A stretch of 64,000 nt of DNA from Trypanosoma brucei (lineage: Eukaryota), in NCBI GenBank assembly GCA_000002445.1, contig AE017150.2, forward strand, positions 864,001 through 928,000, read 5' to 3'. The position numbers and the translations under genes were made by a program. Below are positions 8,127 through 53,198 of this stretch, piece by piece. The stretch's first letter is position 1, and each line of letters opens with the position of its first letter. The notes beneath the pieces are model-generated. The model did no database searches and was not told the DNA's origin. It saw only the letters and a program-made list of their open reading frames with translations.

Positions 8127-8170
<44 letters not shown>
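8127..8170. repeat. (CA)22 microsatellite in the 3' flank/UTR of the zinc-finger gene
   Basis: Uninterrupted cacaca tract read directly from the sequence. Confidence 0.95.
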
Positions 8171-8175
<5 letters not shown>

Positions 8176-8187
8176 AGACACCTCCAT

Positions 8188-34954: not shown

Positions 34955-35518
34955 ACCTCATAATCAGACGCAAATCCAACATAGAAAAAGAAAAGGGGAT
35001 AAATCCGGTTAATTCCTCCTTCCGCCACACCAGCAGCACAAACACAACAAAAATGACGAAAAATGATACCAAATCACAACTACAAAAGAAAAAAATAAAA
35101 GTTACGAAACCATCCCGACACCTTGAAACATTTGAACAACACAAATAGCTGCGGGGGCTACGACAACCACAACAACGCAGCAACCAGTGGACCCTCTGAG
35201 GGACGGATGCTCGCACCGCAAAGAAAACTTCGGAGAGCACCACACACACACACACACACCCGTCTGAACCGCTCCCGTCGCGAGAAACAGCCTCCGCCTC
35301 TTCTCAGGTCAAGCACCGCTTAATACCACCGAACCAACATTCCCCACTGCATTCCGCACCCACACCACGGAAACACCACCGTCCAGACACGCTACAACAG
35401 TAAATATGAGTAGGGCCCGTCAAAACACACGGCATCCGGTGGGAAATGCCAACACGTTGCCACAAATTGGCGCAATCATGCAAAAGTCACTACCGCAACA
35501 ACCGAGGGCACTCCAGTA
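34955..35518 (-). repeat. intact SIRE-like interspersed repeat (~565 bp; segments X'+A), inverted relative to the split copy at 36640-37057 + 41360-41505
   Basis: The reverse complement of 35095-35518 matches 36640-37057 almost perfectly, including an internal (CA)8. The reverse complement of 34955-35095 matches 41360-41505. The contiguous small ORFs (66 aa MKHLNNTN..., 104 aa MCVCVV...) are mirrored on both strands. Confidence 0.85.
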
Positions 35519-36639
35519 GCCTCAGTTGTCATATCTTCGCTTTTCCTCCCGCTCCTGGAGACACCCTTGCTGTCCCACCAACCGCCTGAATCTACGCGCA
35601 CCTGCCCGCAGACGGCCCTTTTGTCACCGGTTTCCGCCCACACCTGTCACCGCAGCAACAGCCCGCCTATACTCCACGAGCCGGTGCCGGCAGAGGGAAG
35701 TGCCTTGCTTTTCGCATAATGCCACTGAACAAAGTCCCAAGCGAAAACAATGAGGGACAGCCGCACAAGACCGCCCAGTAGCGTAGTGACGGCAGCTCAG
35801 ATAGAGCGCTGCGGACCCAATGGATGCCATGACGGCTCTGAGGTTTACCCCCCCCCCCCCCGTGGAGGCAAACTCAGCGAGACCGGGGTCAAAGGGCCCA
35901 CTTGCCTTGTTCTGCCGATAAAACATAGAAAGGCGACAGGTGACCCGCGGCATCTGGTTTCCTGTCAGCAAGGTGGTGTCGACCACTGCAGCCCCATCGT
36001 GCAGTGGGTGCCATTCCCCAGCGTAAGAAAAGCATCGGTTGGGTGTGTGCCCTATCTGGTCCCCGGATGAACCTTCCCAACATATCGCTAGTCACATTCT
36101 TTTGCGGCGACCCACCCTCAAGCCCTTGCTAGCGGCCAAAGCTCTTCAGACACGGGTGTACTGGTACTTGTTGAGGATTTCCCTCACCTTATTCGGGTTC
36201 CATCTTTGGTGCTTCAGTGCGTTAGAAGGTCCGCCATATGCTGGCTCGTTGGGTGCATTTTTCGATACGTAGAACACGGTCTCAACGTCTTATTGGCGAA
36301 GCTCCGGCAAATTGCTATGGGGGCCCAGTGACCGGGCAAAGGTCCTACGTTTGAGGAGTCGCGGCTGACGGGCGACTTTTGAGTACCACATTTCAAAGGA
36401 AAATGGGGGGGGGGCGGCCAGTGATTCAATCGGTTCGTCCGGAACATTAAGTGGCCTTGGAGATGAAATCCTTTACTTGCCTCGGAAGCGACGCAAATCT
36501 CTCACTATAGTTGGGGAGAAATAGCCCTCGCCCCTCCGGCGTCCAAGCTTGCACGCGGAAGTACCCTAAGGGTGACGCTACCTAATCATAGAGGGACAAC
36601 GCATCACAAGAACTTCGAACTGCGGAAAGATAAGAGTGC

Positions 36640-37057
36640 CCTCGGTTGTTGCGGTAGTGACTTTTGCATGATTGCGCCAATTTGTGGCAACGTGTTGGCA
36701 TTTCCCACCGGATGCCGTGTGTTTTGACGGGCCCTACTCATATTTACTGTTGTAGCGTGTCTGGACGGTGGTGTTTCCGTGGTGTGGGTGCGGAATGCAG
36801 TGGGGAATGTTGGTTCGGTGGTATTAAGCGGTGCTTGACCTGAGAAGAGGCGGAGGCTGTTTCTCGCGACGGGAGCGGTTCAGACGGGTGTGTGTGTGTG
36901 TGTGTGGTGCTCTCCGAAGTTTTCTTTGCGGTGCGAGCATCCGTCCCTCAGAGGGTCCACTGGTTGCTGCGTTGTTGTGGTTGTCGTAGCCCCCGCAGCT
37001 ATTTGTGTTGTTCAAATGTTTCAAGGTGTCGGGATGGTTTCGTAACTTTTATTTTTG
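36640..37057 (+). repeat. 5' part (A') of the split SIRE-like repeat, flanking the retroelement
   Basis: Matches the reverse complement of 35095-35518. Similarity stops at cttttattttt|gtgagg. Confidence 0.85.
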
Positions 37058-37454
37058 TGAGGTTGAGAAAGGAATCGTCCATCCTTACCACTTTCCTTGT
37101 TATTCGTTCTTTCCTTTCTTATATATGCATAGAAAAACTATTACTGAGGAAAGTTTTTTAAAAAGGTAAGTAATCGCTGTAAGTTTTGAGAGATGGTAAC
37201 GACAACCCCTCCAACTATATTGGATGCCGAATGGAAAATAAGTTTGAAAGAAATAAGGACTTTTGTGAAGCAGGGCGGTCGGACCACATTTTCATTCGAC
37301 TATTGTCCCCCTTTTGGAAATACAGCGGTACACGTAGACGGTTTGGTGAGGCTTGAAAATGGAGAGCTTCGAGTGATTTTTGACTAGGCAGCTAAATTTC
37401 GTCGATTTACGGAGCTCGTTGGTTTCCTTCAATATGCCCTAAAACATTGAATTC

Positions 37455-38440
37455 TTGTGTATGTTCAAAGAAAATAGAGATATGTTTCGTAACGAATGTC
37501 TAGCACTAGAAGCAAATAAGTCTAATTTATACCAACAGTACGAAATGACAAGACCACAAATGAATGATGAGCACTGGAGAATGCAAAACCAGTCGATGGA
37601 ACTGAATAGGCAAGTTGAAAGGTTCATGCAAGAAAATTGTGCTTTGAGAGGGGAAATGGAACAGATGCTCTTCCATAACAATAGGTTAGTAGTTGTCATT
37701 GAATCGATAACACCTGAGTTACACCACTGGAAGATATTAGCAAATACGGACGCCACACATAAAACGGATCCAGTTGTCGAACAAGGGAGAGTAAAGAATG
37801 AATCAGATCAAAAGGAAAAAGGTAGAATAGAAATAAAGTTCCCTTTTGACTCATACAAATCACAGTTTTGTCAGAAATCAAGCGGTTAACATGTAAGGAA
37901 CCACAAGGTAGGAATCAGAGGCATTCAGCAGGTAAAAATAGCTTTGTGGGCAAGGGTTTTCCCCCTAAAGAAAACATACGGACGTTTAAAGGGGAGATCG
38001 AATACATGACGGAGACATCACCGGAACAGTTTTTTAACTGCGTACAAAGAATTGTTCCCATTACCACAAAAACCGGATTACGGGTCACAATGCGTCTGGG
38101 AGCAATTTGCGGCGTGGATAAGTGCAGTGGGAGTATAAGGATCTCAGAAGGTGGGATAACAGTCGGGAGGTCGATTCACACTTATCTTCGAGTCTTACAA
38201 ACAGCGAAAGCCCATCCGGGGGTGCGAGTGGAAGCGTTGGCAAAGGCAGTACATGACTCAAGGAGGGACGAGGATCCATACCATCAAGCATACCCAAAAG
38301 TTCAAAAACCGACTTCCCAAGTTAGCAGAATACGATGCTTCCGATGTGGGAAGTTGGAGCACTACAGTGCGTCATGCTTCGTTAAGGATGCCAAGGTTCC
38401 GTGGAAGCCAACAAGCGAATACCGGCCCCGGAAACAGTAA
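37455..38440 (+). pseudogene. gag-like ORF remnant with CCHC zinc knuckle (frameshifted near 37870)
   Basis: A coiled-coil N-terminal ORF (37455-37889) is followed, in a different frame, by a 190-aa ORF ending ...RIRCFRCGKLEHYSASCFVKD. This contains a Cx2Cx4Hx4C motif. Confidence 0.6.
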
Positions 38441-38870
38441 GCTTCGGGGCCGAGAAAATATTGGAATCCGTATCCATGGTTACGGGGCCAAGGACCCACA
38501 AGTGGGTAATAGCGAATGGAGAAATGCCACGGAAAACTTGCCGGGTAAAGGTCTGATGGTAGAGGAGGACACAGAGGACACAAAGGGAAGAGAGCCAGCA
38601 AGAGAAACGGCATCCCCAGTTTTGCGCCCTACGAAAACACCGGTAAACGAAGTTATCGTTATAAAACTGGCGACCCACGATCCGGTTATGGCGGCGTGGG
38701 CTTCATAATCGAATTGCATAGCAAGGGTCATGAGGACACAGTCAACTTGGGAGCAGCGGCGGTCGATTCTCAGAAGATTCTGCGAGTTTGCGGCAAAACA
38801 CAACGTGGAGCCAAGTGAGGGGAATGTTCCCATCTTCATTGTGAGTTTGTAACTGGACAAAAGCAGCGCC

Positions 38871-39382
38871 GTGAGGTATACAGGAACTCTTTTGTCGATG
38901 CTGGCAGCGGAAAAGGCACTAGCAAGAATGTTTTTGTTGGGTTTGCAGAGAAAAGTGGAGGAAACACCAATAAAGCAGGCCTGCCCCATGGAGATGTGGG
39001 AGCTGGACATGATAAGCGACACAACGGAACTGGAAAGGGAGCGAGTGGCCATGCGTCTGTCTTGGGTCACTGCCAGTCGTTGGGGAGAGATTGCTTCGCT
39101 GCAAAAGGAAAATTTTGTCGCTCATCCTCAGGACGAGGAGGCACTAATCGTCGACTGGGGGGCATCCCAAAGACATTCAAGTTAGATCCACGCAGAGCAG
39201 CGAGATATGTGGTCATCGCGGGCGAGGACGCCAAAAAGTTGAAGAAAGTCGTAAGGTTGATGGTGGATGAAGAAAAACTAACCACCATCAGCACAAGGGA
39301 CGTGGAAAACATTCTGAAACCTTACGCAATGACGGTACATTCTATAAAAAAAAAAGGGGGTCTCTACCTCATGCGACCGTAG
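38871..39382 (+). pseudogene. tyrosine recombinase (DIRS/VIPER-type integrase) remnant
   Basis: LSWVTASRWGEIASLQKENFV resembles the box I arginine region (LxxxTGxRxxExxxL) of YR catalytic domains. A later HSIKKKGG...Y region lies in a shifted frame. Confidence 0.4.
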
Positions 39383-39774
39383 CGGTGGTAGAAAACGACC
39401 TCGACTCACACATTCTGGCCCAGATGGGAAAACACGCGGACCCCATGGAATTTCGTCGGAGCACCACTAGGAATTTAGGGTCGTGGGTGGCAGTGCTAAA
39501 CAAGTAAATTTAACAGTGCTCATGCATAAACGGAGGGTGAGTGGGCCACGTTACTGTGGAAGGTTCAGAATCCAACGATAAAAATAATAGGACAGGACCT
39601 TTATTTCAGAGACACAACATTCTCCGACGCACCCATCAAACCAAGGTCGCCTCGGATACTGAGCAACAGGAGTCACCGTAACAACAGATGAATGTGGAGA
39701 CTTTATCGCTAAAATGGATCAAGTAACGACTGAATAGTCAATATTTACAGCTCTTCAATGATGTTTGGGAGACC

Positions 39775-41163
39775 ATGCGCAGACCGGCCAGGAAAGAAGG
39801 TCGGGAATACGAGCCAAAATTGACGATTTCAGACCAGAATACTATCACCGTGGAAAGAGAGGGTACAATTCAGAAAGTGTCCAACAACCCTACCACGGGT
39901 TGGGCGGTGCCCTTCACGGTAGTTGAAGAGAAGCCAACGGGTTGTCGAGGGCGAATCATTACATGGCCAAAGTCTAAGAATGCACAGGACGATTATGAAG
40001 CTATTGTTCCTCTGGGACACGTGCCACGCTACCTGGATGCTGTCCATGATGAGGGTGCAGCGCTTTGTGATTTAAAAGCTTCGTTTTCTTAAAAGCGGGC
40101 TTGCTGATGGACACCCGATCAGGTTTCTTATGCCGGACGGCAGGTGGAAAGCTCGTGGAACTTGCCCGACTTCCTATGGGTTACAAGTGTGGCCCGGGAG
40201 TCTTACACACGGCCCCGTGTGTATTGGCCGGGGACTCTGCAGTAGTGAAAGCTGAATATGCAGCGCCTTCGTAGCTAAAAGTACATGTGTGGATTGATAA
40301 TATTCGTATTAGCAGTCCACGGGAAGTTGTAAACTGATGGAACAAGGTGATTAGAAGAAACATGTTACAGCGCGGCGCAACTTCATGGAAAAGCAAGTCC
40401 ATCACCGCACTATATGATTTCATTGGAGTCCACTTTGGTCATGGTTCAAAGATGGTGCCATTGAGCAAAAAAACGGTGCGGAAACTCAGGAGGCTATCCC
40501 ACTGAGAGGGTTACTGTTGACAGTTTGGAGAGCATAGTATCCCGAATGATGTATGCGGCAGGGGCACGGGGAGGTTCTCTGTTCCGACATTTTTTTTTCT
40601 TAAAGATGGTAAGACGGCGCTTGTCGGAGCTCAACAGGTGTGTCTTGGCGCAGAACGACATGGCACGGCTTTCCCTCCAGGCAATCCGCATGGGGCAGGA
40701 GTGACTAAGCGGGTTGATCGAAAAAGAACCCGTTAAGCCGTCAAGGTAATTACCGACTTCTGCAACATCGGTTACCGATGCTTCTATACACGGCTGGTGA
40801 GCTTCACTTTTTAAGGACAATGGGAAAGTATGGGCTTCAGGAGGCCAGCGGGCACAACCTCCACATTGTATCTCTCATACCAAGGCGAGAGCAGTGACAT
40901 TGGCATTGAGAGCTTTTCAGGGCAGCCTGCTTAATAATATTTACGTATGTGTGGATAATACTACAGTTATGCATGTCACGAAAAAAGGTAACACACACTC
41001 CGATGCTTCGGTTCAAGAAGTAAGTTTAATAGATCATGTTTATCTGGAGGAAGGCATCGAGGCTCTTTGGGACTATGTTGTTTCATTAGCGAATTTCGCT
41101 GATGGTATCTCACGGAGGAGGGCGGTTTTTCCATCGGACTTAGCGAAAGGGTGGAACTTGTGA
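39775..41163 (+). pseudogene. reverse transcriptase / RNase H remnants
   Basis: A VHVWIDNIRIS peptide (YxDD-like, around 40280) is followed by a stop. The ORF 40894-41163 contains ...YVCVDNTTV... and ...SLANFADGISRR, which is an RNase H-like C-terminal (N..AD.LA) pattern. Confidence 0.35.
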
Positions 41164-41359
41164 TAGGGAGCGCGGGAGGCGGGATGAGAACGCTTTCACC
41201 AATTCCTTATCGTAAGTGTTTTGTTTCTTTCATTGTCTTAATATTGGGAGTTTTACCTACATTGAAAAAGCTTACCGTGATACCCCAAAATTGGCCATTT
41301 AAATAATTATATCTTTATCATAATTCTCTTCTATATGTAGGAGTAGGTAAGGTGCAAAC

Positions 41360-41505
41360 TATTCTTTTCTTTTGTAGTTGTGATTTGGTATCATTTTTCG
41401 TCACTTTTGTTGTGTTTGTGCCGCTGGTGTGGCGGAAGGAGGAATTAACCGGATTTATCCCCTTTTCTTTTTCTATGTTGGATTTGCGTCTGATTATAAG
41501 ATTCA
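41360..41505 (+). repeat. 3' part (X) of the split SIRE-like repeat, flanking the retroelement
   Basis: Matches the reverse complement of 34955-35095 (ttcttttgtagttgtgatttggtatcatttttcgtca...ggaattaaccggatttatcccc...). A pyrimidine-rich tract and AG dinucleotides follow, ahead of the VAMP7-like gene. Confidence 0.8.
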
Positions 41506-41712
41506 TCCGTGCGTGTTGTATAATTATTGATTGTTTTATGTTTGTAATTGGTTATTTGTTGCTTGTTTCTTATATTGCTCTTTTATTTGCTTCGTTGATA
41601 TGCTCAAATATATTCTTTTACATGTTTGTAGTGTAGTGTAGTTGAAGGAAAGGGTCCTAGTTTGTACCTGAGTATTGTGTTACTCTTTTTTATATATGGG
41701 AAGGAATTGCCA

Positions 41713-48056: not shown

Positions 48057-48629
48057 TAATTCCAAGCATGAAAAGGAAGAAAGAGGGGTTAAAAGGGAAG
48101 TTGTGCGAGATTTAAGTATTGGATTCACGAGTCCCTACAATGCGAACCTTTTACTTCTAATCTGAATCATCTGGAGAGATGTTCGTGAGAGCGATGACTG
48201 CCATCCAGAATGAAGTGTGGTCTCCCTCCTCCTTTTGTATGTGGCGTTTCTCATCCTTGGAAGAAAGACATAGAGGAGAGATGGGAGCAAAGAATATGCC
48301 CAACTTCTTATATTATTATTATTATTACTATTATTATTATTACTGTTTTCTGTTGAGATTAAATTTCTACTAAATATTATTCTGTTGAAACATGCCCCCC
48401 TTTTCATGTACACGCCTGGAAAGGGGGGGAATGAAGGGGAATTCAGTGCGGGGCGCCGCTGCAATTCAAATGCTCTGCTGATAAAAGCTTCTGTTTCCTA
48501 CTGTTTTTTATTGAAAAATAACACTGGTCGTTTGGCGCGTAGGTATCTGAAAGTCTGCAATAAACTCGCGGACGCGGAGTTGTCTATGCACCGTGGATAA
48601 AGGGAACCTGAACTGAGATACAGACGCAC

Positions 48630-49848: not shown

Positions 49849-50541
49849 GTGTGCATGGCGTCCAAGAAAGGAGGGAAGAAGGCTAACGGAGAGGATTTGG
49901 AGGCGGCCATTCTTCGGTGGTTCGAATGCGAGGGTGAACCAGCAACTGTGCAGTCACTGACCGATGCACTTGGAAGTAAGTTCGGTAAGCAACTGGTTCA
50001 AAATACGTTGGAGCAATGTTTAAAGGAACAGAAGCTGTTAGCCAAGGACATAAAAAAGGCACGGTTCTACTTCCTTGCCAGTCCCGCGCCTGGAAGCAAT
50101 GATGAGGGAAGCGATGTAGGCTCGCACAAAATAGATATCGTAAAACAGCTACGACAGTTACGAAATGGGGTCTCCATGCTTTCTTCTGAGTTGAGCGTTC
50201 TCCTGCAGGCCCAGACTTCCTCGAAGAGAGCCACAACGATCGCCTCTCTTGTCTCCGAGTGTGCAGCACTGAGGTCACGGCTTCAGGCACTACATGTGAT
50301 AGCAGGCAAGGAAAGCAGTTGTGTGTCGGACGATGTCTCGCTCCTCATCCACCGTTACAAAAGGGCCAGAGAATTATGGAGGGATCGGAAGCGTATTACG
50401 GTATGCGTCATCGATGCCGTTCTGGGAGATAGTTGTGGCCCGCAGGAGCTTGAGGATATCTTCGGACTGTCCACGGATGAGCAGATGAATCTGTGCCTAT
50501 CTGGAACTGCACTCACACTTCCAGCGACGGTGAGTAGTTGA
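49849..50541 (+). CDS. HOP2: homologous-pairing protein 2 (HOP2/TBPIP) meiotic recombination factor
   Basis: N-terminal winged-helix-like segment (AILRWFECEGEPATVQSLTDALGSKFGKQLVQNTLEQCLKEQKLLAKDIKKARFYFL). Coiled coils. A C-terminal segment (YKRARELWRDRKRITVCVIDAVLGDSCGPQELEDIFGLSTDEQMN) matches the Hop2 motif YxxExxxWRKRKRxxxExxDAILEG...EEVGIETDED. Confidence 0.6.
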   Translation: MCMASKKGGKKANGEDLEAAILRWFECEGEPATVQSLTDALGSKFGKQLVQNTLEQCLKEQKLLAKDIKKARFYFLASPAPGSNDEGSDVGSHKIDIVKQLRQLRNGVSMLSSELSVLLQAQTSSKRATTIASLVSECAALRSRLQALHVIAGKESSCVSDDVSLLIHRYKRARELWRDRKRITVCVIDAVLGDSCGPQELEDIFGLSTDEQMNLCLSGTALTLPATVSS

Positions 50542-51056
50542 TAGGGACAAACTTTCCTCAAAGCAACAGACGGGGCAACTAAAGGTGATTACAGATAGGA
50601 GGGAATCGGATTATTTAACATCACTTGTGTGTATGTATTAATCATTTATCGTTTGTTCTTTTAACATGGTGTTAACCACGCATACATTGTTTTTATTTTA
50701 CATTTACAGAAGCCATTACTTCATTATTTATTTATTAACTCCGCTGACAGATTTTTAAAAATAAAGGTCTCCATTTCCCTGCGTCATGGACGAAAAAAAG
50801 TTTGAGTTTGTGCCATAATGAATTACTTAACCTCCTTGGGGCCATCATACAGCGATGCAGCAACTGTTCAGTTCCTTTAAAGGTCTTTTTACTTTACTTT
50901 TCCCCCTGTCCAGCTATTTATTTCGTTTTTCTGTTCGGTGCACCATCTTTCGGAGGTGCGAGGGAAGAGAGGAAAAAGAGATAGAAGGCCAGGTGTTCAC
51001 AACACGTTTTCTAACCCTAACCCTGCAGTGTCACGATTATTTTTTCAGGTCTCTAA

Positions 51057-53198
51057 ATGGATGAGCAAAACAGTGAGAGCTCGGATGTGGGGGGCTTACT
51101 TGAAGTTCTCGAAGAGTGTGCGCTTGGTGACTGGGACGTGAGTGCAGATGAGTTGCTGTTAAAGTCGTTGATGACAATGCAGGCGAAGCTTTCCGCCCGT
51201 TTTGACTCTATTCGCGGTATGGTGGACTCCCTTTATGATGAGGCGCGTACGGCCTCGATCCAACTTCAAAACGCCATGAATTCCTTTGCCGTCTTATCAC
51301 AGAGGCAGTTCGTGCAGAACCGTGTGTCGGCAGAAGACGAAGGTAGCGAAAGAGAAACCGAGCCCTCCAAGTCTGATGAAGGCGAGTCAGAGGATAGAGA
51401 AAGGGGTCTTGGGGACGTGGAGGTGAGGGTTGCCCGTATGTGCCAAGAGTGCGTAGACCTTAGCTATCGTGTTCTCAAGAAACGAACAATGCCGTTGCTC
51501 GACGAGGACTCTTCCCTGAGTGAGTATGGTTCGGGGGATGATGAGAGCGAAGGAAGCTCCGCTGAGGTTCGCCGCCCTTCTTGCTCTGAGAATCTCTTCA
51601 TGTCACCCATTACTTCAAGAAAATTTCTCAGCGACCCGTACGGGGGCTACTTTGATAATACTGTCGGCAAAGCAGATTTTACCTCGGGAGGGAGGCGTCG
51701 TCTTGGTGGTTCTACGGGACGAATGGGAAGAGGCTCGCGGCAAAACCCGTCAACGAGATTAGGGGGACCGACGACCGTGCGTCCTGCTGCGCCACCGCCG
51801 TTGCCACCCACTCCCCCACCGGTTCAGATGGCGAAGGCGAAAGGGACTTTGCCCCCACCACCTCCACCGATGCCCACAGGAAAGCTTAAGGCTCCCCCGC
51901 CTCCACCGCCACCGTTTGCGTCGATTGCTGGAAAGACGAGGGCACCCCTGCCACCGCCACCCCCTGCGCCTACTGGAAAGACTCAGGCCCCAGCAGCTCC
52001 ACCCCCTGCGCCTACTGGAAAGACTCAGGCTCCAGCAGCTCCACCCCCTGCGCCTACTGGAAAGACTCAGGCCCCAGCAGCTCCACCCCCTGCGCCTACT
52101 GGAAAGACTCAGGCTCCAGCAGCTCCACCCCCTGCGCCTACTGGAAAGACTCAGGCCCCAGCAGCTCCACCCCCTGCGCCTACTGGAAAGACTCAGGCTC
52201 CAACAGCTCCACCCCCTGCGCCTACTGGAAAGACTCAGGCTCCAGCAGCTCCACCCCCTGCGCCTACTGGAAAGACTCAGGCTCCAGCAGCTCCACCCCC
52301 TGCGCCTACTGGAAAGACTCAGGCCCCAGCAGCCCCGCGTGTCGCCGCACAGACGCAAAAGCAGCAGGCAAAAAAAGGTGTAGCTGCGTTTCTCGACTCT
52401 TCCGACAGTTCGGACGGGTCAGAAGCGAAACCATGTGCGGGGGCTGTGGTAAGACCGGGTCTGGCAGCTCCTTCGCTTGTACGAGAGAATTCAACGCTCC
52501 CGTCACCCGCACCAGTGCTAAGCATGAAGAGGCCACCTGCTGCTTCATCGGGAAAGGGAAAGGTTGCCCTGTTCGACTCGAGCTCGGATAGTGACGAAGA
52601 AAACTCTGGTGTGCGAGCAGCCACTTTCACTGAGAAGGATGACCAACAGTTCCCTAAGGGAGGGGTGGGTGCTGGTGATTTGGCGCGCAAAGGCTCTCCG
52701 AGGGGGGTTCCGAGTCGAGCAACGAGCGGCAGTAGGGTCGGTCCAACTGACCAACAGAAGCTGATATCACCAGTGGGCAGCCCGCGGAGCAGGCGTCCAA
52801 TCTTTTCTAGTTCAAGCGGCAGCTCTCCGGAAGCGACTCCACCGAGGGCGAGTATCAAACAAACCGGTTGCCGAGGTGCGGCTCTCGGGGTATCCAGTAC
52901 CGCACAGGTAGGCGGCGGTAATAACCAAAGCACAACCGCAAAACCTCTCCCAACCACATTTCAATCTGTCGAGAGGAGTGTTCCAGCGTCTCCACCGCCG
53001 CCAGAAGGAGTGCGTGCTAGGAGTGAGGCCGCACCTGCACAGTCGCCCGATGCCGCAGCCAATGTGATGCCTATTGTGAAGACGGAAACTCAACCACAAG
53101 GTGATGACAAAGAGCAGCATACTGCTGCGCCCCTGAAGGTGATACCCAATGTAGCCTTCAGCAAGCGTAAAATAAGCGATAGCGATTCCGACAATTAG
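51057..53198 (+). CDS. proline-rich protein with 9 tandem APTGKTQAPAAPPP repeats (FH1-like polyproline region) and acidic LFDSSSDSDEE motifs
   Basis: 713-aa ORF. PPPPPP runs precede a near-perfect 14-aa repeat array. No FH2 or WH2 domain is recognisable downstream. Confidence 0.6.
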   Translation: MDEQNSESSDVGGLLEVLEECALGDWDVSADELLLKSLMTMQAKLSARFDSIRGMVDSLYDEARTASIQLQNAMNSFAVLSQRQFVQNRVSAEDEGSERETEPSKSDEGESEDRERGLGDVEVRVARMCQECVDLSYRVLKKRTMPLLDEDSSLSEYGSGDDESEGSSAEVRRPSCSENLFMSPITSRKFLSDPYGGYFDNTVGKADFTSGGRRRLGGSTGRMGRGSRQNPSTRLGGPTTVRPAAPPPLPPTPPPVQMAKAKGTLPPPPPPMPTGKLKAPPPPPPPFASIAGKTRAPLPPPPPAPTGKTQAPAAPPPAPTGKTQAPAAPPPAPTGKTQAPAAPPPAPTGKTQAPAAPPPAPTGKTQAPAAPPPAPTGKTQAPTAPPPAPTGKTQAPAAPPPAPTGKTQAPAAPPPAPTGKTQAPAAPRVAAQTQKQQAKKGVAAFLDSSDSSDGSEAKPCAGAVVRPGLAAPSLVRENSTLPSPAPVLSMKRPPAASSGKGKVALFDSSSDSDEENSGVRAATFTEKDDQQFPKGGVGAGDLARKGSPRGVPSRATSGSRVGPTDQQKLISPVGSPRSRRPIFSSSSGSSPEATPPRASIKQTGCRGAALGVSSTAQVGGGNNQSTTAKPLPTTFQSVERSVPASPPPPEGVRARSEAAPAQSPDAAANVMPIVKTETQPQGDDKEQHTAAPLKVIPNVAFSKRKISDSDSDN
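51955..52335 (+). repeat. 42-bp tandem repeat, about 9 copies (gctccaccccctgcgcctactggaaagactcaggcYccagca), coding
   Basis: Read directly from the sequence. Copies differ only at synonymous C/T positions and by one A-to-T codon change. Confidence 0.9.

What the first reader, a model, noticed from the sequence alone, without database searches (positions are those of the whole stretch)
51057..53198. Proline-rich protein with a near-perfect 42-bp x9 in-frame tandem array and LF-acidic motifs
Nine 14-aa units (APTGKTQAPAAPPP) are encoded by 42-bp repeats that differ only at synonymous C/T sites. This indicates very recent expansion or ongoing homogenisation, and the locus is likely length-polymorphic between strains. 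Upstream polyproline runs (PPPLPPTPPP, LPPPPPPMP, APPPPPPPF) resemble formin FH1 or WASP-type profilin/SH3 ligands, but no FH2 or WH2 domain is present. Downstream, the acidic Ser-rich motifs AAFLDSSDSSDGSE and VALFDSSSDSDEEN recall the LFa motifs of WASH-complex FAM21. This is only a resemblance.
Basis: partly seen in the sequence, partly recalled or inferred. Interest (0 to 1): 0.55.

Follow-up and report, generated by a model that had tools for sequence, protein, structure and literature searches.

The report
Trypanosome FAM21 (WASH complex) with proline repeats
This unnamed Trypanosoma brucei gene is the parasite's diverged copy of FAM21/WASHC2, the subunit that in animals tethers the actin-building WASH complex to endosomes. 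It carries an unusual, recently expanded and copy-number-variable proline-rich repeat.

Summary
ORF 51057-53198 (+, 713 aa) contains an in-frame 42-bp x 9 array (TRF score 719, 97% matches). Proline runs lie upstream of it and Ser/Asp-rich LF motifs downstream.

The window is T. brucei TREU927 chromosome 2. The ORF is XP_951692.1/Q585V1, annotated 'hypothetical protein, conserved'.

It is real homology. Residues 17-201 match the N-terminal head of FAM21/WASHC2:
- An exhaustive phmmer search gave 93 hits. They include proteins named WASH complex subunit 2/FAM21 and proteins carrying Pfam CAP-ZIP_m.
- A profile built from four independently identified FAM21 heads scores the ORF at 56 bits. The best of 1000 shuffles reached 6.7 bits.

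Syntenic orthologues exist in T. melophagium and in a metagenomic kinetoplastid. T. brucei WASH is a separate gene, and a strumpellin gene is annotated in Leishmania.

The tail is derived. It has only 3-4 Ser-rich LF motifs, no CAPZ-binding region and about 20% proline. The 42-bp array is absent from T. melophagium. In T. b. gambiense it is longer and interrupted by an assembly gap. In T. equiperdum the contig ends inside it.

The function is inferred: a WASH-complex subunit that links endosomes and retromer to actin. Whether the proline array docks profilin or SH3 domains is untested.

The parts
51057..53198 (+). Complete CDS, 713 aa plus stop. Equals XP_951692.1 / AAQ15978.2 / UniProt Q585V1, 'hypothetical protein, conserved', T. 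brucei TREU927 chr 2. Probably Tb927.2.5200, judged from neighbour numbering.
   Evidence: ORF list. Exact-sequence look-up. Neighbours Tb927.2.5180 and Tb927.2.5210 are named in papers.
51105..51659 (+). FAM21/WASHC2 head domain homology (aa 17-201). It comprises a long helical hairpin (aa 26-97, with W26, L34, N75, L80, Q84-F85, R89 conserved), a third helix (aa 117-143) and the degenerate 'LP.LIGS..F..D..G' motif (aa 180-199, LFMSPITSRKFLSDPYGGYF).
   Evidence: phmmer against 1.84e9 proteins. Names and Pfam of the hits. HMM of 85 non-kinetoplastid heads, 117 bits. HMM of 4 independently identified FAM21 heads, 56 bits, against a shuffle maximum of 6.7. Alignment A2. AF2 model with helices 5-23, 28-97, 117-143 and pLDDT >90 for aa 11-80.
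51777..52343 (+). Proline-rich module (aa 241-429) between the head and the first LF motif.
   Evidence: Translation. The tail is 20.5% Pro, against 4-10% in most canonical FAM21 tails.
51849..51965 (+). Two or three old, diverged copies of the repeat unit. They carry the canonical polyproline runs: LPPPPPPMP, TGKLKAPPPPPPP, AGKTRAPLPPPPP.
   Evidence: Read directly from the translation. The same 'GK.KAPPPPP' grammar appears in TbWASH.
51966..52343 (+). 42-bp x 9 in-frame tandem array encoding (APTGKTQAPAAPPP)n. TRF coordinates are 51957-52333.
   Evidence: Longer and differently built in T. b. gambiense. Absent from T. melophagium.
52383..52424 (+). LF-type motif 1, AAFLDSSDSSDGSE (aa 443-456). 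Nearly identical in T. melophagium (ISAFLDSSDSSDDD).
52563..52604 (+). LF-type motif 2, VALFDSSSDSDEEN (aa 503-516).
   Evidence: Motif count is 3 in the tail, against a shuffle mean of 0.03.
52797..52832 (+). LF-type motif 3, PIFSSSSGSSPE (aa 581-592). It contains Ser only and has few acidic residues.
53157..53195 (+). Conserved C-terminal basic-hydrophobic-Ser/Asp end, FSKRKISDSDSDN. Kinetoplastid orthologues end in FSKRHIYSSDSDA, KVLATSSDED or KRSIYSSESD.

Best explanation
The ORF encodes the Trypanosoma brucei orthologue of FAM21 (WASHC2), the tail-bearing subunit of the WASH Arp2/3-activating complex.

Shown here: residues ~17-201 are homologous to the FAM21 head, and the gene has positional orthologues across kinetoplastids.

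Inferred from what the family does in animals (Jia et al. 2012, PMC3374753): the head inserts the protein into a complex with WASH, strumpellin, SWIP and CCDC53. The ~510-aa disordered tail positions that complex on endosomal sorting domains.

The tail is remodelled in this lineage in two ways.
(i) The 7-16 acidic LFa motifs typical of the family are reduced to 3-4 [F/L][L/F]-Ser/Asp clusters. These are rich in CK2-type sites and would become LFa-like when phosphorylated. They are the likeliest contacts for retromer VPS35 or the endosome.
(ii) A formin-FH1-like proline module lies between head and LF motifs. One of its 14-aa units was amplified to 9 near-identical copies by recent unequal exchange or slippage.

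I propose that the proline module is a multivalent docking platform for profilin-actin, or alternatively for an SH3 domain such as that of myosin I, feeding the Arp2/3 branch-making site. That step is speculative.
For: Identity and organism: exact match to XP_951692.1.

Head homology:
- 93 hits at E<=1e-3 in an exhaustive phmmer search of 1.84e9 proteins. All are matched at their N-termini to query aa ~22-115/200.
- Named hits include WASH complex subunit FAM21 from Biomphalaria (E 2e-7), WASH complex subunit 2 (Anabrus, Hetaerina), WASHC2A-like (Mizuhopecten) and FAM21/CAPZIP domain proteins.
- 12 of 23 long hits carry PF15255 CAP-ZIP_m.
- A profile of the non-kinetoplastid heads scores the ORF at 117 bits over aa 17-201.
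- A profile of only four independently identified FAM21 heads gives 56 bits, E 1.7e-19, against a shuffle maximum of 6.7 bits.
- Conserved columns are W26, L34, N75, L80, Q84, F85, R89 and G197.

Orthology: the gene order AKR-(Hop2)-X-ketoacyl reductase-...-kinase-Prp19 is conserved in T. melophagium and in a metagenomic kinetoplastid. Head identity to T. melophagium is 48%.

Partners exist:
- TbWASH is a separate protein with a WAHD head and a CA region but no WH2 (Kollmar 2012 text and alignment).
- Strumpellin is annotated in Leishmania and reported for Trypanosoma (PMC11684767).
- Retromer was studied in T. brucei (Koumandou 2011, cited).

Tail motifs are enriched: 3 observed against 0.03 in shuffles, and they are present in all kinetoplastid orthologues.

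Profilin context: trypanosomatid profilin binds polyproline, carries its own WH2-like insert and is needed for endosomal sorting (PMC10907219).
Against: - Pfam finds nothing in the protein, not even PF15255.
- The strict LFa motif is not met, and only 3-4 motifs are present against 21 in human FAM21.
- No experimental localisation, interaction or expression data could be retrieved. The likely gene ID appears in no searchable paper.
- The large profile was built from sequences found with this query, which is an ascertainment bias. The four-sequence profile was made for that reason.
- The repeat units hold only three consecutive prolines (AAPPPAP). That is weaker than classical profilin ligands, and the array is absent from the T. 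melophagium orthologue, so it may be dispensable.
- SWIP and CCDC53 were not checked in T. brucei.
Confidence: 0.8

Rival explanations
1. The protein is a FAM21 orthologue, but the 42-bp array is a selectively neutral low-complexity expansion from replication slippage or unequal exchange in a disordered linker. It would have no ligand of its own and only lengthen the spacer between head and LF motifs.
For: The array is absent from the syntenic T. melophagium orthologue. Copy number and composition differ between TREU927 and DAL972. Near-identity at the DNA level shows that it is very young. Tail-repeat copy number also varies in unrelated bodonid-like orthologues (P0017 versus P0106).
Against: The frame is kept in both subspecies. 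The amplified unit derives from an older proline module that holds canonical P5-P7 runs. Most trypanosomatid orthologues, and TbWASH, also have P5-P8 runs.
Confidence: 0.35
2. The protein is itself the WASH-type nucleation-promoting factor of trypanosomes, built as N-terminal helical domain, polyproline region and C-terminal acidic end.
For: The overall layout resembles WASP-family proteins. Kollmar 2012 notes kinetoplastid WASH proteins without WH2, and some without a hydrophobic residue in the acidic region.
Against: The TbWASH and TrcWASH sequences in Kollmar's alignment are different proteins, with a WAHD head and LDALSSLLANRRKGILGMHSDGEDEDDD. The head here matches FAM21-named proteins only. 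Pfam detects no WAHD or WH2. There is no C-helix and no Trp in the acidic end.
Confidence: 0.03
3. The head similarity is a coiled-coil or compositional artefact, and the protein is a lineage-specific proline-rich protein unrelated to FAM21.
For: The domain is helical. There is no Pfam or PDB match. The best E-values to individual animal FAM21 proteins are modest, 1e-7 to 1e-4.
Against: Those E-values are for a library of 1.84e9 sequences. HMMER bias terms are small. Shuffled queries score at most 6.7 bits against 56-117 bits. Conservation is position-specific (W..L..D..LL ... N.F..LS..QF[VI][EQ]NR[VI] and the LIGS..F..D..G motif) and spans three separate blocks in the same order.
Confidence: 0.03

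Closest known systems
FAM21 / WASHC2 (human WASHC2A/C and orthologues), subunit of the WASH regulatory complex
   Same: Both have an N-terminal ~200-aa head with the same three conserved blocks. Both have a long, disordered, low-hydrophobicity tail bearing short hydrophobic-plus-acidic/Ser linear motifs. Both are single-copy genes. The partner genes WASH and strumpellin are present in the lineage.
   Different: The tail is ~510 aa rather than ~1100. It has 3-4 half-motifs ([F/L][L/F] followed by a Ser/Asp run, with no second LF) rather than 21 LFa motifs. There is no PF15255/CAPZ-interacting region. The tail is ~20% proline, with P5-P7 runs and a 9 x 14-aa array; canonical tails are 4-10% Pro with runs of 2-3. 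It also has a kinetoplastid-specific conserved C-terminal K/R-hydrophobic-SDSD end.
Formin FH1 domains and the proline regions of WASP-family proteins, including T. brucei WASH
   Same: Both have tandem X-PPPPP(P) runs separated by short Gly/Lys-containing linkers. The 'GK.KAPPPPP' grammar is shared with TbWASH. Such tracts are the classical profilin-actin and SH3 docking sites.
   Different: There is no FH2, WH2, C-helix or Trp-containing acidic region. The amplified units contain only PPP. Binding has not been tested.
Other length-variable in-frame repeat genes in trypanosome assemblies
   Same: They share near-identical DNA units, assembly breaks at the array and copy-number differences between subspecies.
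   Different: Here the repeat sits inside a conserved cytoplasmic trafficking protein, not a surface or antigen gene. The N-terminus is acidic and hydrophilic and the C-terminus is charged, so no signal peptide or GPI signal is apparent on inspection of the sequence.

Membership tests
FAM21 / WASHC2 | N-terminal ~220-aa head homologous to the FAM21 head, the part that incorporates FAM21 into the WASH complex | tested here: met
   The four-sequence independent profile gives 56 bits and the 85-sequence profile 117 bits over aa 17-201. Named WASHC2/FAM21 proteins are among the hits.
FAM21 / WASHC2 | Long disordered tail with multiple LFa motifs, L-F-[D/E]3-10-L-F (Jia 2012) | tested here: inconclusive
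   The tail is 63% P/S/A/G/T and 12% hydrophobic. It holds 3 [hydrophobic][F/L]+(S/D/E) clusters plus a C-terminal one, enriched over shuffles. None has the second LF, and Ser outnumbers Asp/Glu. Jia 2012 notes that Ser is frequent in the acidic stretch and that the second Phe matters little.
FAM21 / WASHC2 | CAPZ-interacting central region (Pfam PF15255 CAP-ZIP_m) | tested here: not met
   No Pfam hit at E<=0.1, and none in the kinetoplastid orthologues. The region is also missing from 11 of 23 long non-kinetoplastid family members, so it does not define the whole family.
FAM21 / WASHC2 | Physical assembly with WASH, strumpellin, SWIP and CCDC53 | not testable with these tools
   Only the presence of partner genes could be documented: TbWASH and strumpellin in Leishmania and Trypanosoma.
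FAM21 / WASHC2 | Tail binds retromer VPS35 and targets the complex to endosomes | not testable with these tools
   Retromer exists in T. brucei (Koumandou 2011, cited). No binding data were found.
Formin | FH2 domain C-terminal to the FH1 proline region | tested here: not met
   No Pfam family was detected.
WASP family (WASH) | WAHD head and C-terminal (V)CA region | tested here: not met
   No WAHD or WH2 hit. TbWASH is a different sequence.

The most novel reading that the evidence does not exclude
In trypanosomes the WASH machine may have been rewired for actin-monomer delivery. TbWASH has lost its WH2 motif, trypanosomatid profilin has gained a WH2-like insert, and both TbWASH and this FAM21 orthologue carry 'GK.KAPPPPP'-type proline modules. 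The FAM21 tail array would then act as an FH1-like, copy-number-tunable antenna that concentrates profilin-actin next to Arp2/3 on endosomes. The 9 versus >=19 unit difference between T. b. brucei and T. b. gambiense would alter endosomal actin output and so the rate of surface-coat recycling.
Probability: 0.15. Interest if true: 0.75.

Novelty: new variant of a known kind. Interest (0 to 1): 0.45.

Why it matters
The entry is annotated only as a conserved hypothetical protein. Pfam-based annotation cannot see what it is, because Pfam has no model that detects the FAM21 head. No paper in the searchable library names a kinetoplastid FAM21.

Assigning the gene fills a missing subunit of the trypanosome WASH complex. 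WASH is the only WASP-family Arp2/3 activator reported for Euglenozoa (Kollmar 2012).

It also gives an experimental handle on how actin is coupled to retromer and endosomal sorting in a parasite that depends on very fast surface-coat recycling.

The derived tail has few Ser-rich LF motifs, no CAPZ-binding region and an FH1-like array. It shows how far the adaptor part of FAM21 can drift while the head stays fixed. It also suggests a testable link to the unusual trypanosomatid profilin.

Tried and rejected
- Word-indexed homologue searches found nothing outside T. brucei: N-terminus, C-terminus and the head alignment. The cluster representative is an N-terminally truncated gambiense fragment. 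Only the exhaustive phmmer search revealed the family.
- Pfam was negative for the ORF and for the kinetoplastid orthologues.
- PDB sequence searches with the protein and with the profile, and Foldseek against PDB, gave only non-significant helical matches. No FAM21 head has been solved.
- The AlphaFold-database fold library was not available.
- Several papers that might already list a kinetoplastid FAM21 or describe the head are not held: Derivery & Gautreau 2010, Veltman & Insall 2010, Jia 2010 and Gomez & Billadeau 2009. Prior identification therefore cannot be excluded.
- Searches for the likely gene ID and accessions found no paper on this gene. A 'Fam21' hit in a T. congolense paper is an unrelated surface-protein family.
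- Rejected identities: WASH itself and formin. A secreted repeat antigen was also rejected, because the termini are hydrophilic and the gene has cytoplasmic-family homology.
- A sigma-70 promoter/terminator scan is irrelevant to a trypanosome.
How far the array extends beyond the T. brucei group is therefore unknown.
Full report
**Observation**

The window is Trypanosoma brucei brucei TREU927 chromosome 2. The ORF and its neighbours are exact matches to GenBank proteins of that genome. The gene layout is trypanosomatid: long same-strand gene arrays with a divergent strand switch near 35-41 kb.

ORF 51057-53198 (+) encodes 713 aa. It is XP_951692.1/Q585V1, 'hypothetical protein, conserved'. From the neighbours Tb927.2.5180 (aldo-keto reductase) and Tb927.2.5210 (ketoacyl reductase), it is probably Tb927.2.5200.

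Tandem Repeats Finder reports a 42-bp array at 51957-52333 with 9.0 copies, 97% matches and score 719. In codon register there are nine units from 51966 to 52343, all in frame. Eight encode APTGKTQAPAAPPP. They differ at one synonymous C/T site, whose alternating pattern suggests amplification of an 84-bp dimer, and at one Ala>Thr change in unit 6. The ninth unit decays into APRV.

**What the protein is**

Pfam finds nothing in the ORF. The word-indexed protein searches found only T. brucei fragments.

An exhaustive phmmer search of residues 1-238 against 1.84 billion representative proteins gave 93 hits at E<=1e-3. The best are kinetoplastid proteins of about 600-650 aa:
- T. melophagium, E 2e-44
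- T. cruzi marinkellei, E 6e-37
- several metagenomic sequences
- a diplonemid

The rest are mostly long proteins (900-1870 aa) or fragments. They match at their N-termini to query residues ~22-115, and often out to ~200.

Where these hits carry names, the names are 'WASH complex subunit FAM21', 'WASH complex subunit 2', 'WASH complex subunit 2A-like' or 'FAM21/CAPZIP domain-containing protein'. Twelve of the 23 long hits carry Pfam PF15255, the CAPZ-interacting central region of FAM21.

A profile built from the 85 non-kinetoplastid heads scores the T. brucei protein at 117 bits over residues 17-201. That profile was assembled from sequences found with this query. I therefore rebuilt it from only four proteins identified independently, three by PF15255 and one by name. 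It still gives 56 bits (E 1.7e-19 for one comparison). The best of 1000 shuffled queries reached 6.7 bits.

The alignment shows three collinear conserved blocks:
- W-x-[LV]-x-x-D-x-x-L-L ... N-x-F-x-x-L-S-x-x-Q-F-[VI]-[EQ]-N-R-[VI]
- a second helix
- the 'RPLP-x-LIGS-x-x-F-x-x-D-x-x-x-G' motif, which is degenerate in T. brucei (LFMSPITSRKFLSDPYGGYF)

AlphaFold2 with this alignment predicts helices 5-23, 28-97 and 117-143, with pLDDT above 90 for residues 11-80.

No FAM21 head has been solved. PDB sequence and fold searches returned nothing significant, and the AlphaFold-database library was unavailable.

**Orthology and partners**

The T. melophagium gene and a metagenomic kinetoplastid gene sit in the same gene order as in the window: aldo-keto reductase, (Hop2/TBPIP), this gene, ketoacyl reductase..., kinase, Prp19. 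They are positional orthologues. Head identity to T. melophagium is 48%. The tails align only at short motifs.

The protein is not WASH. The supplementary alignment of Kollmar et al. 2012 (PMC3298513) contains TbWASH and TrcWASH. These are different sequences, with a WAHD head, polyproline, a C region (LDALSSLLANRRKGILGMHSDGEDEDDD) and a terminal DDDDDW. That paper states that Euglenozoa have only a WASH homologue among WASP-family proteins, and that Trypanosoma WASH lacks the WH2 motif.

A strumpellin gene is annotated in Leishmania (LmjF.27.1660, PF10266) and reported for Trypanosoma (PMC11684767). Retromer has been studied in T. brucei (Koumandou et al. 2011, cited). A FAM21 subunit is therefore expected in this organism, and this ORF fills that position.

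**How it probably works**

In human FAM21 the ~220-aa head incorporates the protein into the WASH regulatory complex. The ~1100-aa disordered tail carries 21 LFa motifs (L-F-[D/E]3-10-L-F), which bind retromer VPS35 multivalently and localise the complex to endosomes. Serine is common in the acidic stretch. The first LF and the acidic run are essential, while the second Phe contributes little (PMC3374753).

By homology, the T. brucei head should serve complex incorporation. This is inference. The tail (residues 202-713) is 63% Pro/Ser/Ala/Gly/Thr and 12% hydrophobic, which is consistent with disorder.

The tail holds three [hydrophobic][F/L]-(Ser/Asp/Glu) clusters: AAFLDSSDSSDGSE, VALFDSSSDSDEEN and PIFSSSSGSSPE. 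It ends in a conserved FSKRKISDSDSDN. Shuffled tails give 0.03 such clusters on average. All kinetoplastid orthologues have 2-9 of them, and the first is almost identical in T. melophagium.

Compared with canonical FAM21 tails, the kinetoplastid tails have fewer motifs:

| Feature | Canonical FAM21 tails | Kinetoplastid tails |
|---|---|---|
| LF motifs | mostly 7-16 | 0-3 |
| Residues after the LF | acid-dominated | Ser-dominated |
| Proline content | 4-10% in most | 14-21% |

I read these clusters as phosphorylation-dependent equivalents of LFa motifs. That is inference and needs binding tests.

**The proline module and the array**

Between the head and the first LF motif lies a 190-aa proline module. 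Its 5' part holds canonical runs (LPPPPPPMP, TGKLKAPPPPPPP, AGKTRAPLPPPPP). These are degenerate copies of the same x-x-T-G-K-x-x-A-P-x-x-P-P-P unit that was later amplified. TbWASH uses the same grammar (GKAPPPPPPPPP, AGKMKAPPPPP).

Trypanosomatid profilin binds polyproline, has a WH2-like insert of its own, and needs its proline-binding site for endosomal sorting in Leishmania (PMC10907219). A profilin-actin docking role for the module is therefore plausible but unproven. An SH3 ligand role is an alternative. A neutral expansion is a serious rival.

The array is young and unstable:
- The syntenic T. melophagium gene has only a (CAC)10 tract encoding P8.
- In T. b. gambiense DAL972 the gene is split into two models by a 180-N gap inside the array. 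That array holds 19 perfect cores against 9 here, extra variant units (GKTKAPPAPPPPAPAENNEAPAAPPPA) and a second GKTRAPPPPPPP start after the gap.
- The T. equiperdum contig ends inside the array.

Part of the DAL972 picture could be assembly redundancy. The TREU927 count could also be a collapse.

**Comparison with what is known, and novelty**

The protein meets the defining head criterion for FAM21. It fails the PF15255 criterion, but so do about half of the long family members found here. It is inconclusive on the strict LFa motif. Complex assembly and VPS35 binding cannot be tested with these tools. It is neither a formin nor a WASP-family protein.

No paper in the searchable library names a kinetoplastid FAM21, and public names for the kinetoplastid proteins are all 'hypothetical'. 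The older evolutionary surveys of the WASH complex could not be read, so earlier recognition cannot be excluded.

I class it as a new variant of a known kind: a bona fide FAM21 head joined to a shortened, Ser-rich, proline-rich tail with a recently amplified FH1-like array.

Interest is moderate. The result gives a name and a testable function to an unannotated trypanosome gene and suggests a link to the unusual profilin. The family and its general role are, however, well known.

Noticed in passing
window 35000-41700: Divergent strand-switch region. All long ORFs are on the minus strand up to 35028 and on the plus strand from 41662, and GC skew changes sign near 36 kb. This is typical of a trypanosomatid polycistron boundary.
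   Followed up: no
window 49849-50541 (+): The ORF directly upstream of the target has a TBPIP/Hop2 winged-helix domain (PF07106, E 2.7e-5), so it is a meiotic recombination gene homologue. The annotated gambiense model is 228 aa, so the true start is probably the ATG two codons after the GTG listed.
   Followed up: partly
window 8127-8181 and 48311-48342: (CA)27 and (TAT)10 microsatellites. These are the only other tandem repeats TRF reports in the window.
   Followed up: no
window 51011-51024: CTAACCCTAACCCT, about 2.3 telomere-type hexamers, lies 33 nt upstream of the start codon. It is followed by a T6-CAG that could be a splice-acceptor-like site. This is probably chance.
   Followed up: no
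L001 3819-3998 (T. b. gambiense DAL972, FN554965.1): A 180-N assembly gap sits inside the repeat array. The orthologue is therefore annotated as two separate genes, of 459 aa and a 489-aa 'fragment'. The sequence just after the gap has frameshifted, low-quality repeat units.
   Followed up: yes
L002 1-120 (T. equiperdum CZPT02001625.1): The contig ends inside the array with two units left. The orthologue is therefore annotated only as a 224-aa C-terminal piece starting at an internal Met.
   Followed up: yes
proteins P0017 and P0106 (metagenomic bodonid-like orthologues): The two sequences differ by exactly one 29-aa tail unit (KPVAKRAIGSDDDSESDDAPRAAPKKAPP). Copy-number change in tail repeats therefore recurs in this family, in a different repeat.
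   Followed up: partly
proteins P0015 aa ~255-300 and P0017 aa ~285-330: A ~45-aa conserved insert (R..R.Y..YNP.KL.EV..I...F.GRE..LI.ALV..YGPEP) is present in bodonid-like orthologues and absent from trypanosomes. It has no Pfam match.
   Followed up: partly
TbWASH sequence in Kollmar 2012 supplementary WASH.fas: T. brucei WASH carries proline modules with the same 'GK.KAPPPPP' grammar as the target's older repeat units. It has two separate proline regions flanking its C region.
   Followed up: partly
window 51759-52358 (-) and 51916-52383 (+): ORFs of 155-199 aa in other frames and on the other strand across the array. They are stop-free only because the 42-bp unit has no stop codon in those frames, so they are artefacts and not genes.
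   Followed up: yes
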